A stretch of DNA of 64,000 nt from Escherichia coli (GTDB taxonomy: Bacteria > Pseudomonadota > Gammaproteobacteria > Enterobacterales > Enterobacteriaceae): assembly GCF_003334305.1 (NCBI RefSeq), contig NZ_QOWS01000002.1; one strand, given 5' to 3'. The notes under the pieces are model-generated. The model made no database searches. It saw only the letters and a list, made by a program, of their open reading frames with translations, and was not told the origin of the DNA. The position numbers were made by a program, and so were the translations under genes. Of this stretch, positions 3,127 through 35,760 are shown one piece after another; position 1 is the first letter of the stretch; every line of letters begins with the position of its first letter.

Positions 3127-3244
3127 ACAGTCTGCCAGGGAAATGCCTGATAACATTACGTTAACCAACTGAAAACATGACACAAACCCCTCATACTCCT
3201 CCTGTTTCTCTTGCGTGACCGCCTTGTCGTTAATAGAATAAAAC

Positions 3245-3280
3245 GATCGATAAAACAGGTATCGATCGTTACTATCGATC
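3245..3280 (+). promoter_or_regulatory. Three clustered GATC sites upstream of flu: candidate Dam/OxyR phase-variation switch of agn43
   Basis: GATC at 3245, 3264 and 3277, ~220-250 bp upstream of the flu start codon, matching the known agn43 arrangement. Confidence 0.6.
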
Positions 3281-3497
3281 ATTTATAGTGGTTAATGGTC
3301 TGCGAAAAGGCAGCTGAATCTCTTCATCATGCAGAACGGAATTGCACACAACGGACTGATACTTCTCTGGCGGATGAGAGAGGGGAAGCATTTATGTCCG
3401 GGAAAAACCACTTTATCTGACCATGCTGTTTTGTACCTGCCGGTATCCACTTTTGTGGGTACCGGCTTTTTTATTCACCCTCTGTAAGGAAAAGCTG

Positions 3498-21058: not shown

Positions 21059-21811
21059 GATGAAACCCCGCTTTTTTTATTGATCGCACACCTGACAGCT
21101 GCCTCTAAAATAGAAGCACCAGAAGTACTGACAGATGTTGCACTGCTGTGTGTAGTAATAAATCAGCCCTAAATGGGTAAAATATAAAACTAATGGATTA
21201 CATCTGATTTCAATCTAGCCATTACAAATCTTAAATCAAGTGTTAAACATGTAACTAAATGTAACTCGTTATATTAAAATGTTAATCTTAAGGTTTTATT
21301 AAGTTTAGAAATGATAGAAAAGTTGTACATTTGGTTTTTATTGCACAATTTTAAAAAATCATACAAATGGTGATAACTTACTAATAATACATATAAAAAA
21401 TATTTCGGTGTAGTCCTTTCGTCATGTAAAACGTTCTTGTTTTTTCTCCGCACCTCCGTGGACAATTTTTTACTGCAAAAAGACGAGGTTTGTCACGGCT
21501 TGTGCGCAAGACATATCGCAGCAATCAGCGACGGGCAAGAAAAATGACTGTCTGGTGATTTTTGATAGCGGAAAACGGAGATTTAAAAGAAAACAAAATA
21601 TTTTTTGCGTAGATAACAGCGTATTTACGTGGGTTTTAATACTTTGGTATGAACAAAAAAAGAAAAATACAACGCGCGGGTGAGTTATTAAAAATATTTC
21701 CGCAGACATACTTTCCATCGTAACGCAGCGTTAACAAAATACAGGTTGCGTTAACAACCAAGTTGAAATGATTTAATTTCTTAAATGTACGACCAGGTCC
21801 AGGGTGACAAC
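21059..21811. promoter_or_regulatory. csgD-csgB divergent intergenic control region
   Basis: 753-bp AT-rich intergenic region between divergent csgDEFG and csgBAC; known to carry both promoters, many regulator sites and the csgD 5' UTR. Confidence 0.8.
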
Positions 21812-27083: not shown

Positions 27084-31266
<4,183 letters not shown>

Positions 31267-31278
31267 AAACGTAGTTGC

Positions 31279-31365
31279 CTGATGCGCTACGCTTATCAGG
31301 CCTACATCGCTCCTGCAATTTATTGATTTTGCAAGATTTTGTGGGTCGGATAAGGCGTTCACGCC
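31279..31365. repeat. REP/BIME palindromic units downstream of opgH
   Basis: GCCTGATGCGCTACGCTTATCAGGCCTAC and CGGATAAGGCGTTCACGCCGCATCCG units. Confidence 0.7.
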
Positions 31366-31395
31366 GCATCCGGCAAAAACAACGAGCCAATAAAA

Positions 31396-31422
31396 ATACC
31401 GGCGTTATGCCGGTATTTTTTT
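31396..31422 (+). terminator. Rho-independent terminator (opgGH)
   Basis: ATACCGGC-gttat-GCCGGTAT followed by T6. Confidence 0.6.
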
Positions 31423-33350: not shown

Positions 33351-33521
33351 AGCAATCCGCTGTTGGTGCGCCAGGCGCGGTGAACATAAGAAGAAAAGAT
33401 AAGCACACTAATTATGCGCCCGACTTCCAGGGGGCGCAATCCAGAGAGCTTTTATCGCTAAATCAGGGGGATTTGCTGTGGTAATGCCGGATGCCATTCT
33501 GAAGCATCCGGCATGGGAGAT

Positions 33522-35719: not shown

Positions 35720-35760
35720 ATATCATTGCCGGATGCGTGCCATCCGGCAACATTTCACTC

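What the first reader, a model, noticed from the sequence alone, without database searches (positions are those of the whole stretch)
31279..31365. Related BIME-type REP elements at three intergenic sites
The elements after opgH (31279-31365), between flgF and flgG (52445-52545) and after rluC (63771-63866) share palindromic units. The first two also share an internal CAATTTATTGATTTTGC motif. This is ordinary for E. coli but accounts for the otherwise unexplained intergenic length at these sites.
Basis: seen in the sequence. Interest (0 to 1): 0.15.

Follow-up and report, generated by a model that had tools for sequence, protein, structure and literature searches.

The report
Ordinary E. coli REP/BIME intergenic repeats
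The three intergenic stretches are copies of E. coli's well-known REP/BIME palindromic repeats, two of them the IHF-site-bearing BIME-1 type, so the finding is correct but ordinary.

Summary
An unbiased repeat scan of the window ranks these three sites as its top repeat family: a 34-nt palindromic unit at 88% identity. Sites 1 and 2 also share a 65-nt block at 88%, including the exact 17-mer CAATTTATTGATTTTGC.

Sites 1 (opgH–yceK) and 2 (flgF–flgG) are BIME-1 elements, also called RIP or RIB. Each has a short z1 unit, an L linker matching the IHF core consensus, and an inverted y unit. They align colinearly with eight independent copies from other loci.

Site 3 (rluC–yceF) has two units head-to-head with a short linker. 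It resembles a single, degenerate BIME-2 unit and is best called atypical.

All three are present in MG1655. Sites 1 and 3 occur in more than 99% of 5,426 complete E. coli genomes.

One side result goes beyond the finding. The flgF–flgG spacer is dimorphic: BIME-1 in 64% of genomes, and a different GC-rich dispersed repeat (BoxC-like) in 36%. In Salmonella, Citrobacter and about 100 other enterobacterial species the spacer is only 5–31 nt, so the repeat does explain the extra length.

Everything fits published REP/BIME biology. Novelty: already known. Interest is low.

The parts
31275..31306 (+). Site 1, z1-type palindromic unit (TTGCCTGATGCGCTACGCTTATCAGGCCTACA). It starts 8-10 nt after the opgH stop codon (31264-31266).
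31307..31340 (.). Site 1, L linker. The core 17-mer at 31316-31332 matches the IHF consensus YAANNNNTTGATW. The minus strand matches Rfam ES036 (31298-31340).
31341..31376 (-). Site 1, y-type palindromic unit, inverted (tail-to-tail with the z1 unit).
31377..31389 (+). Site 1, truncated right-flank motif (AAACAACGAGCC), shared with another BIME-1 copy (L149).
31392..31422 (.). Context for site 1: a perfect 12-bp hairpin with an A-tract before and a T-tract after. It looks like a bidirectional intrinsic terminator and lies between the BIME-1 and the yceK ATG (31439).
   Evidence: (I3)
52421..52443 (+). Site 2, left-flank motif of the BIME-1 (…ATGACAAGT…). It is an inverted repeat of the right flank.
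   Evidence: (I3)
52444..52473 (+). Site 2, z1-like unit. Its variable stem position is a C-G pair (GCCCGATG…ATCGGG), where z1 has T-A and y has G-C.
52474..52509 (.). Site 2, L linker. The core 17-mer at 52485-52501 carries the IHF consensus. Outside that core it diverges from site 1.
52510..52545 (-). Site 2, y-type unit, inverted.
52546..52572 (+). Site 2, right-flank motif (GAAGACATATGCACTTTGTCACTAATC). It is conserved in other BIME-1 copies as …AGCGCACTTTGTCAGCAA.
63769..63782 (-). Site 3, remnant of a unit foot (ATTATCAGGCTTAT). It duplicates GCCTGATAA of the neighbouring unit.
63788..63822 (-). Site 3, full palindromic unit, inverted. It has a z-type T-A pair but a y-length centre.
63823..63835 (.). 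Site 3, short head-to-head linker (GCCTGCACCGATT). It aligns to the linker of the BIME-2 unit in Rfam naRNA4.
63836..63862 (+). Site 3, degenerate head-only unit (GCCGGATGCG-N7-CGCATCCGGC). It forms a perfect 10-bp hairpin ending 8 nt from the yceF stop codon (63871-63873, minus strand).

Best explanation
These are three copies of the REP/BIME family of non-autonomous palindromic repeats of E. coli.

**What each site is.** Sites 1 and 2 are BIME-1 elements: a z1 unit, an L linker and an inverted y unit. Site 2 also has the family's flanking motifs, giving an element of about 150 nt. Site 3 is one atypical, BIME-2-like head-to-head pair.

**How they most likely work (inferred from published family properties, not shown here).**
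- On DNA, the L linker offers a consensus site for the bending protein IHF, set between two cruciform-capable palindromes.
- On RNA, the units fold into very stable hairpins, or into one long z1:y hairpin. These sit in the 3' UTR of opgGH just before its terminator. They also lie between the convergent rluC and yceF transcripts, where no canonical terminator exists, and inside the flgB-J operon mRNA between flgF and flgG.
- There the hairpins would block 3'-to-5' exonucleases and attenuate readthrough.
- Where a stem begins within 15 nt of a stop codon (opgH, yceF), it could lower translation of that gene by stalling the terminating ribosome.

**How they arose.** By insertion and gene conversion of a repeat family associated with the TnpA_REP/RAYT transposase, not by local evolution.
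For: **Identity**
- The window is E. coli, and all three elements are present in MG1655.
- The repeat family is recovered de novo, and pattern hits occur only at these sites.
- The unit alignment shows the z1, y and degenerate types.
- Sites 1 and 2 are colinear with 8 independent z1-L-y copies from other loci (A7). Of 120 exact L-core matches in metagenome contigs, 59 had both flanking unit heads.
- Rfam ES036, a model of the L motif, scores 52.5 against a gathering score of 37.6 on site 1. The naRNA4 model of a BIME-2 unit scores 54.5 on site 3.
- The architecture matches the BIME-1 definition in PMC3333891 and PMC1187871.
- The IHF core consensus is matched exactly at both sites.

**Dispersed family**
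- Median 19-27 places per genome in all 5,426 genomes, capped.

**RNA structure**
- Minimum free energies of -43 to -54 kcal/mol, z-scores of -4.1 to -6.1.
- The alignment consensus pairs z1 with y, with the L hairpin at the tip.

**Context**
- A terminator-like hairpin lies right after site 1.
- Several other copies are followed in the same orientation by a hairpin plus T-run.
- There is no terminator between rluC and yceF.
- Stems begin 8-10 nt after the opgH stop and 8 nt after the yceF stop. The 15-nt rule is reported in PMC12306157, citing Liang 2015.

**Insertion origin**
- The flgF-flgG spacer is 13 nt in Salmonella and Citrobacter.
Against: - No expression, binding or decay data could be examined, so every functional step is inferred from the family.
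- At site 2 the IHF core is not conserved. The MG1655-type linker (ATCGA instead of ATCAA) is exact in 2,129 of the 3,457 genomes carrying this linker. The window's consensus version is exact in only 110.
- Most other copies carry TTGAAT, one mismatch from the consensus.
- The whole site-2 core is replaced by another repeat in 36% of genomes. That argues against an indispensable, sequence-specific role at that locus.
- There is almost no covariation in the stems: 2 of 33 pairs. This is expected for a young repeat family and uninformative about selection on structure.
- The foot tetranucleotide GTAG/CTAC is exact in only 2 of the 6 units.
Confidence: 0.88

Rival explanations
1. The elements are functionless at these loci. 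They would be selfish or neutral leftovers of repeat spread that merely pad the intergenic regions. Any IHF binding or RNA hairpin effect would be incidental and not selected.
For: - The site-2 core is dispensable as a sequence. It is replaced by an unrelated repeat in 1,944 of 5,426 genomes.
- It is internally deleted in E. albertii and another Escherichia lineage.
- Its IHF core is mutated in most carriers.
- Relatives do without any spacer element.
- PMC1187871 reports that BIME-1 elements are typically present or absent among isolates.
Against: - Sites 1 and 3 are kept in 99.5% and 99.9% of genomes.
- Both site-2 alleles give an equally strongly folded spacer that leaves the flgG ribosome-binding site unpaired.
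- Buttiauxella independently acquired REP-like hairpins in the same spacer.
- Several copies show a consistent orientation upstream of terminators.
Confidence: 0.35
2. The L linker of site 1 encodes a discrete small RNA (Rfam ES036/CssrF) on the minus strand, and site 3 encodes a nucleoid-associated naRNA-like RNA. On this reading the elements are RNA genes rather than DNA or mRNA cis-elements.
For: - ES036 matches 31298-31340 (minus strand) at 52.5 bits, above its gathering score of 37.6.
- naRNA4 matches site 3 at 54.5 bits.
- PMC4550694 reports that many annotated REPs are transcribed and that a REP325 RNA binds HU.
Against: - The ES036 model simply describes the repeated L motif plus a unit foot, so any typical BIME-1 will match it.
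- Site 2 scores only 18.9 bits.
- No sigma-70-like promoter was found on either strand at any site.
- The minus-strand L RNA folds no better than shuffles, with z-scores of -1.2 and -1.5.
- naRNA4 is below its gathering score at all three sites.
- No literature on ES036 or CssrF function was found.
Confidence: 0.08
3. The similarity among the three sites is chance or compositional: GC-rich hairpins such as ordinary terminators, not a repeat family.
For: Short head-only hairpins built on GCCGGATG occur elsewhere in the window (33484-33514, 35725-35750). Part of the unit therefore resembles generic stem-loops.
Against: - The 31-nt unit pattern has 0 expected matches and 3 observed.
- The 17-mer is exact at two sites.
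- The site 1 vs site 2 alignment score is about 14 standard deviations above controls.
- The same architecture recurs at many other loci.
- None of the units is followed by a T-run.
Confidence: 0.01

Closest known systems
BIME-1 (also described as RIB or RIP elements: REP pairs carrying an IHF site) of E. coli K-12
   Same: For sites 1 and 2:
- One short z1 unit and one y unit, inverted tail-to-tail.
- A conserved L linker carrying the IHF core.
- A single copy rather than a tandem array.
- An extragenic position downstream of a gene.
- About 140-150 nt including flank motifs at site 2.
- Present or absent among strains, as reported for this family.
   Different: - Site 2 lies inside an operon between two cistrons, with no terminator. 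The RIB paper's title places the family at the 3' ends of transcription units.
- Its z1 unit carries a C-G pair at the position that normally distinguishes z (T-A) from y (G-C).
- Site 1 lacks the left flank motif and has only part of the right one.
- Both window copies have TTGATT in the core, where most sampled copies have TTGAAT.
BIME-2 (tandem y/z2 arrays; gyrase-binding; source of naRNA4 from REP325)
   Same: Site 3 has two units head-to-head, separated by a 12-13 nt linker. That linker aligns to the linker of the BIME-2 unit in Rfam naRNA4, and the whole model is covered.
   Different: - It is a single unit, not a tandem array.
- One unit is a degenerate head-only hairpin.
- The other has a z-type pair but a y-length centre rather than the longer z2 centre.
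- The score is below the family threshold (54.5 < 59.5).

It is therefore best called an atypical BIME.
REPINs and REP doublets mobilised by RAYT (TnpA_REP) transposases
   Same: Two inverted REPs with a spacer behave as a unit, spread through the genome in many copies and are restricted to intergenic DNA.
   Different: Mobilisation was not tested here, and no tnpA_REP gene lies in the window as far as examined. The IHF-site linker is a peculiarity of the enterobacterial BIME-1.
BoxC repeats of E. coli (56 bp, GC-rich, about 20-30 copies)
   Same: This applies to the alternative flgF-flgG allele, not to the window. It is a GC-rich core of about 56-60 nt with a median of 15 places per genome. 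It also occurs after trpS and gcvP and between eutG-eutH and cstA-ybdD. Size and copy number agree with the table in PMC2267715.
   Different: The name is my attribution from memory. The published BoxC consensus was not available for comparison.

Membership tests
REP / palindromic unit (PU) of E. coli | Imperfect palindrome of about 30-40 nt able to form a stem-loop | tested here: met
   Inverted repeats and folds for all units. The right unit of site 3 is shorter (27 nt) and a perfect palindrome.
REP / palindromic unit (PU) of E. coli | Conserved GTAG/CTAC tetranucleotide at the foot of the palindrome (PMC3333891) | tested here: inconclusive
   Exact in 2 of 6 units (CTAC 31302-05, GTAG 52510-13). 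One mismatch in 3 (GTGG 31341-44, CTAT 52470-73, GTTG 63788-91). Absent from 63836-62.
REP / palindromic unit (PU) of E. coli | Extragenic location | tested here: met
   All units lie between stop and start codons of the annotated genes.
REP / palindromic unit (PU) of E. coli | High copy number dispersed over the genome | tested here: met
   Median 19-27 matching places per genome in 5,426 genomes, capped at 40 pieces per record.
BIME-1 | One z1 and one y unit in inverse orientation, as a single copy | tested here: met
   Sites 1 and 2: short-centre unit on the + strand, long-centre GCCGGATG unit on the - strand, tail-to-tail. Site 3 does not meet this.
BIME-1 | Long, conserved L linker between the units, frequently carrying an IHF binding site | tested here: met
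   The linker aligns with 8 other copies. The core matches YAANNNNTTGATW / WATCAANNNNTTR exactly at both sites. Rfam ES036 passes its threshold on site 1 only.
BIME-1 | IHF actually binds the linker | not testable with these tools
   Only the consensus match could be checked. The IHF ChIP paper examined (PMC3333857) does not discuss REP or BIME in its main text.
BIME-2 | Composed of y and z2 units separated by a short S linker | tested here: not met
   Site 3: one unit has a z-type pair with a y-length centre, the other is a degenerate head-only hairpin. The linker aligns to the model's linker, but the total is 54.5 bits against a gathering score of 59.5.
BIME-2 | Occurs as multiple tandem copies | tested here: not met
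   Site 3 is a single pair plus a 14-nt remnant.
Rfam RF02751 ES036 (CssrF) sRNA | Covariance-model score at or above the gathering score | tested here: met
   Site 1 minus strand scores 52.5 against 37.6. Site 2 scores 18.9 and does not meet it.
Rfam RF02751 ES036 (CssrF) sRNA | Expressed as a discrete small RNA from this locus | not testable with these tools
   No expression data. No promoter-like site. The fold is no better than shuffles.
BoxC (alternative flgF-flgG allele in other strains) | GC-rich dispersed repeat of about 56 bp with tens of copies per genome | tested here: met
   A conserved core of about 56-60 nt at 5 different loci. Median 15 places per genome.
BoxC (alternative flgF-flgG allele in other strains) | Match to the published BoxC consensus | not tested
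   The consensus is not available in the held literature.

The most novel reading that the evidence does not exclude
The flgF-flgG spacer may be a recurrently colonised site where a strongly folded intercistronic RNA is selected, whatever repeat family supplies it. Escherichia carries two alternative cores: BIME-1 in 64% and a BoxC-like repeat in 36% of E. coli genomes. Both are also found in other Escherichia lineages, which suggests an old or recombining polymorphism. Buttiauxella independently placed REP-like hairpins in the same spacer. About 100 other enterobacterial species keep 5-31 nt. If selected, the structure would uncouple or re-balance expression of the proximal rod genes (flgB-F) against flgG-J, and the two alleles could differ in IHF binding or mRNA processing.
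Probability: 0.15. Interest if true: 0.35.

Novelty: already known. Interest (0 to 1): 0.12.

Why it matters
For annotation, this closes three "unexplained" intergenic stretches. They are standard REP/BIME repeats and need no new hypothesis.

The practical value lies in the detail:
- Two genes (opgH, yceF) have a REP stem within about 10 nt of their stop codon. That puts them in the class reported to be translationally down-tuned by REPs.
- rluC and yceF, which converge, have only this repeat between them and no canonical terminator.
- The flagellar rod operon carries a strain-variable structured spacer, which gives a natural allele series for testing what BIME-1 does inside an operon.

None of this changes current understanding of the family.

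Tried and rejected
1. **Curated repeat names.** I looked for them in the MG1655 RefSeq record. The copy available lists no repeat features at any of the three sites, so annotation could not be used as a test.
2. **Counting L-linker copies per genome.** A 46-nt BLAST query failed. In a 28-Gb database only the orthologous full-length match passes the E-value limit. That result was reused as a presence/absence count for each locus.
3. **Primary papers.** The definitions, the locus list and the 15-nt rule rest on papers that are not held: Boccard & Prentki 1993, Gilson 1991, Bachellier 1997, Raghavan 2011, Liang 2015 and Liang & Deutscher 2016. I used secondary descriptions in PMC3333891, PMC1187871, PMC2817692 and PMC12306157.
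4. **ES036/CssrF literature.** The search found nothing relevant.
5. **Terminator scan at site 1.** The consensus scan missed the hairpin at 31392-31420 because its T-run is counted into the stem. Folding shows it clearly.
6. **Metagenome matches.** About half of the 120 exact 18-mer matches lacked flanking units and were treated as chance hits.
7. **Shared flanks at the two flgF-flgG alleles.** I considered that they share BIME-1 flank motifs, which would imply core replacement. Part of the apparent left-flank similarity (AATAAAAGCG) belongs to the BoxC-like repeat itself, so only TTGAA…ATGACA and CTTGTCA remain shared. The idea is left open.
8. **A sigma-28 or sigma-70 promoter for flgG inside site 2.** No consensus match was found.

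Full report
**1. What is in the sequence**

The window is E. coli chromosome. A 701-nt stretch around site 1 matches all 5,426 complete E. coli genomes, under mdoH(opgH)/yceK/msyB. The window is colinear with MG1655 at about 1.08-1.146 Mb.

Site 1 lies between the opgH stop (31264-66; ORF) and the yceK ATG (31439). Site 2 lies between the flgF stop (52415-17) and the flgG ATG (52589). Site 3 lies between the rluC stop (63738-40) and the stop of the convergent yceF (63871-73 on the minus strand). All three elements are present in MG1655 with a few substitutions.

**2. Is the similarity real?**

Yes, on four independent measures.
- A de novo repeat scan of the whole window returns two relevant families. 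The first is the three 34-nt units at 31341-74, 52510-43 and 63788-821, at 88% identity. The second is a 65-nt block shared by sites 1 and 2, also at 88%.
- A degenerate 31-nt unit pattern with up to 3 mismatches hits these three places only, with 0 expected.
- The complete 107-nt elements of sites 1 and 2 align at 85 of 108 positions. The score is 60, against -15 +/- 5 for shuffles and random window segments.

Site 3 shares the palindromic unit but not the linker.

**3. Anatomy**

All units were aligned in head-to-foot orientation.

*Sites 1 and 2.* Each has a short-centre unit on the + strand. At site 1 it reads GCCTGATGCGCTACGCTTATCAGGCCTAC; at site 2 it is a variant, GCCCGATGCGCAAGCTTATCGGGTCTAT. 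Each also has a long-centre unit on the - strand, GCCGGATGCGGCGTRAACGCCTTRTCCGRCC. The two units face tail-to-tail across a linker of about 34 nt.

PMC3333891 and PMC1187871 define BIME-1 as one z1 plus one y unit, inverted, in single copy, separated by a long conserved L linker that frequently carries an IHF site. These two sites fit that definition.

The 17-mer contains CAATTTATTGATT, an exact match to the IHF core YAANNNNTTGATW. Nine such matches occur in the window, and two of them are these linkers.

The position that distinguishes z (T-A) from y (G-C) is C-G in the site-2 left unit. Three different Watson-Crick pairs therefore occupy the same stem position.

*Site 3.* It is built differently.
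- An inverted full unit at 63788-822, with a z-type T-A pair but a y-length centre.
- A 12-13 nt head-to-head linker.
- A degenerate head-only hairpin at 63836-62.
- A 14-nt foot remnant at 63769-82.

On the minus strand it aligns over the whole Rfam naRNA4 model, which describes one y-linker-z2 unit of the BIME-2 array REP325. It reaches only 54.5 bits against a gathering score of 59.5. It is single, not tandem, so it fails the BIME-2 definition and is best called an atypical BIME.

**4. Related copies elsewhere**

An exact-pattern scan of metagenome contigs for GCAATTTATTGAWTTTGC returned 120 loci. Of these, 59 had both unit heads in the expected flanks; the rest are compatible with chance.

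They fall into at least nine different genomic sites. Those include orthologues of site 1 (L151, L201, L230) and of site 2 in another Escherichia (L142). Eight independent copies align colinearly with the two window elements as z1-L-y (A7).

Longer extracts add two points.
- The family has flank motifs: a left …GA(C/T)TGA(C/T)G… and a right …AGCGCACTTTGTCAGCAA. Site 2 has both, which makes the element about 150 nt (52421-52572). PMC1187871 gives about 140 bp for BIME-1. Site 1 has only a truncated right flank.
- Several copies are followed, in the same orientation, by a hairpin plus T-run. Site 1 is followed by one at 31392-31422.

Most sampled copies have TTGAAT in the core. The two window copies have TTGATT.

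Rfam's ES036 (CssrF) family is in effect a model of the L motif plus a unit foot. It matches site 1 above threshold (52.5 against 37.6). On site 2 it matches only the core hairpin (18.9 bits).

**5. Population and outgroup data**

| Locus | Query | Genomes with a match covering ≥80% of the query (of 5,426) |
|---|---|---|
| Site 1 | 46-nt L linker | 5,397 |
| Site 3 | 140-nt query spanning the rluC–yceF spacer | 5,419 |
| Site 2, BIME-1 allele | 46-nt L linker | 3,457 |
| Site 2, BIME-1 allele | 321-nt query spanning the spacer | 3,479 |
| Site 2, alternative allele | 86-nt alternative-allele repeat | 1,944 |

The 1,944 alternative-allele genomes include O157:H7 and O111:H8. In them, window positions about 52424-52558 are replaced by about 100 nt containing a different GC-rich repeat.

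That repeat is itself dispersed. It has a median of 15 places per genome, and copies lie after trpS and gcvP and between eutG-eutH and cstA-ybdD. Its size and copy number fit BoxC (PMC2267715). The name is my attribution; the consensus was not checked.

A genome-collection scan anchored on the flgG start returned 111 species.
- The flgF-flgG spacer is 5-31 nt in nearly all of them. It is 13 nt (TAA-tacaggacatttt-ATG) in Salmonella and Citrobacter.
- Only Escherichia has 137-172 nt. E. albertii and one divergent "E. coli" carry the BIME-1 allele with an 18-nt internal deletion of the y unit. Two other Escherichia lineages carry the BoxC-like allele.
- Three Buttiauxella species have their own REP-like GTAG hairpins in the same spacer.

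So the repeat does explain the spacer length at site 2. It is an Escherichia-lineage insertion, and the site has been colonised more than once.

Within BIME-1 carriers, the MG1655-type linker breaks the IHF core (ATCGA). It is exact in 2,129 genomes, while the window's consensus version is exact in 110.

**6. How it most likely works**

*Shown here.* The RNAs would be strongly structured: -43.2, -49.1 and -53.9 kcal/mol, with z-scores of -4.1 to -6.1. The alignment consensus pairs z1 with y and puts the L hairpin at the tip. No promoter-like sites occur at any site, and none of the units is followed by a T-run. Unit stems start 8-10 nt after the opgH stop and 8 nt after the yceF stop, but 28 nt after flgF and more than 40 nt after rluC.

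*Inferred from the literature on the family.*
- IHF binds the BIME-1 linker.
- REPs bind DNA polymerase I and facilitate Rho-dependent termination (PMC2817692).
- REPs stabilise upstream mRNA and act as terminators or attenuators (PMC3333891).
- REPs within 15 nt of a stop codon stall ribosomes and lower translation (PMC12306157, citing Liang 2015).

*By locus.* Site 1 is a 3'-UTR element of opgGH sitting just before the terminator, and is a candidate translational damper of opgH. Site 3 is the only structured element between convergent rluC and yceF, and is a candidate damper of yceF. Site 2 is an intercistronic structured spacer in flgB-J. Both of its alleles fold about equally well (-53.1 and -50.6 kcal/mol) and leave the flgG ribosome-binding site unpaired.

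**7. Rivals**

- *Neutral or selfish DNA with no local function.* This is a serious alternative, especially for site 2, given the replacement, the deletion and the broken IHF core.
- *Discrete sRNA genes (ES036, naRNA-like).* This is weak. The Rfam hit only recognises the repeat, there is no promoter, and the minus-strand fold is no better than shuffles.
- *Chance similarity.* Refuted.

**8. Verdict**

The finding is correct and its interpretation is supported, with the refinements above. It is already-known biology, and interest is low. The flgF-flgG dimorphism and recurrent colonisation is a minor but clean side observation. It is consistent with the published statement that BIME-1 elements are present or absent among isolates (PMC1187871).

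Noticed in passing
window 52424-52558 (flgF-flgG spacer); L004-L006, L034, L067: The spacer is dimorphic in E. coli. The BIME-1 allele is in 3,479 of 5,426 complete genomes. In 1,944 genomes (O157:H7, O111:H8 and others) the core is replaced by a different GC-rich dispersed repeat (BoxC-like, median 15 places per genome). Both alleles also occur in other Escherichia lineages.
   Followed up: yes
L007-L117 (flgF-flgG in 111 enterobacterial species); L062, L086, L098: The ancestral flgF-flgG spacer is 5-31 nt (13 nt in Salmonella and Citrobacter). Buttiauxella species independently carry REP-like GTAG hairpins, one or an inverted pair, in the same spacer. The site has therefore been colonised repeatedly.
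   Followed up: partly
L008 (E. albertii), L018, L142: In these Escherichia lineages the flgF-flgG BIME-1 has an 18-nt internal deletion of the y unit (gtaggccg^catccggcaa), between GCCG direct repeats. Their L core is TTGAAT or more diverged.
   Followed up: no
window 52494; L002 1134: MG1655 and most BIME-1-allele genomes (2,129 exact) have T->C inside the IHF core of site 2 (ATCAA->ATCGA). The window's consensus version is rare (110 exact).
   Followed up: partly
window 31298-31340 (minus strand): Rfam ES036 (CssrF) sRNA matches above its gathering score. The family model looks like a description of the repeated BIME-1 L motif rather than of a single-locus sRNA.
   Followed up: partly
window 31392-31422: A perfect 12-bp hairpin with an A-tract and a T-tract (bidirectional terminator look) lies only about 17 nt upstream of the yceK start codon. 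This leaves almost no room for a yceK promoter after the opgGH terminator.
   Followed up: no
window 31246-31256: CCGGATGCGGC lies inside the last codons of opgH. It is perfectly complementary to the head of the y unit at 31363-73 (I4). It may be a REP-head remnant absorbed into the coding end.
   Followed up: no
window 33484-33514 and 35725-35750: Two isolated head-only hairpins built on GCCGGATG…CATCCGGC, like the right unit of site 3. Neither has a T-run. Energies are -21.7 and -16.1 kcal/mol, with z-scores of -6.4 and -4.1. They are probably degenerate REPs or mRNA 3' stabilisers.
   Followed up: partly
L191 (metagenome contig), around the BIME-1 copy: This BIME-1 copy is bracketed by two near-identical copies of a terminator hairpin (gccacttcttttgggRagtggc). 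It looks like insertion with a long target duplication, or a duplicated terminator.
   Followed up: no
L241 (cstA-ybdD spacer of E. coli CH4793): A BoxC-like repeat lies directly next to a y-type REP. The two repeat families therefore co-occupy other spacers as well.
   Followed up: no
window 62252-62588, 21114-21205, 40471-40520, 3243-3479, 15430-15514: Other Rfam matches above threshold: the rne 5' UTR element, ES056 sRNA, the PyrC leader, IS102 RNA and a tRNA. All are expected for this region of E. coli.
   Followed up: no
window 51514-51557 and 53246-53289: A 44-nt direct repeat at 77% identity lies near the 3' ends of the ORF 50437-51642 (the gene before flgF, flgE by MG1655 order) and of flgG. 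I take it, untested, to reflect a conserved C-terminal motif shared by these flagellar proteins, not a mobile repeat.
   Followed up: no
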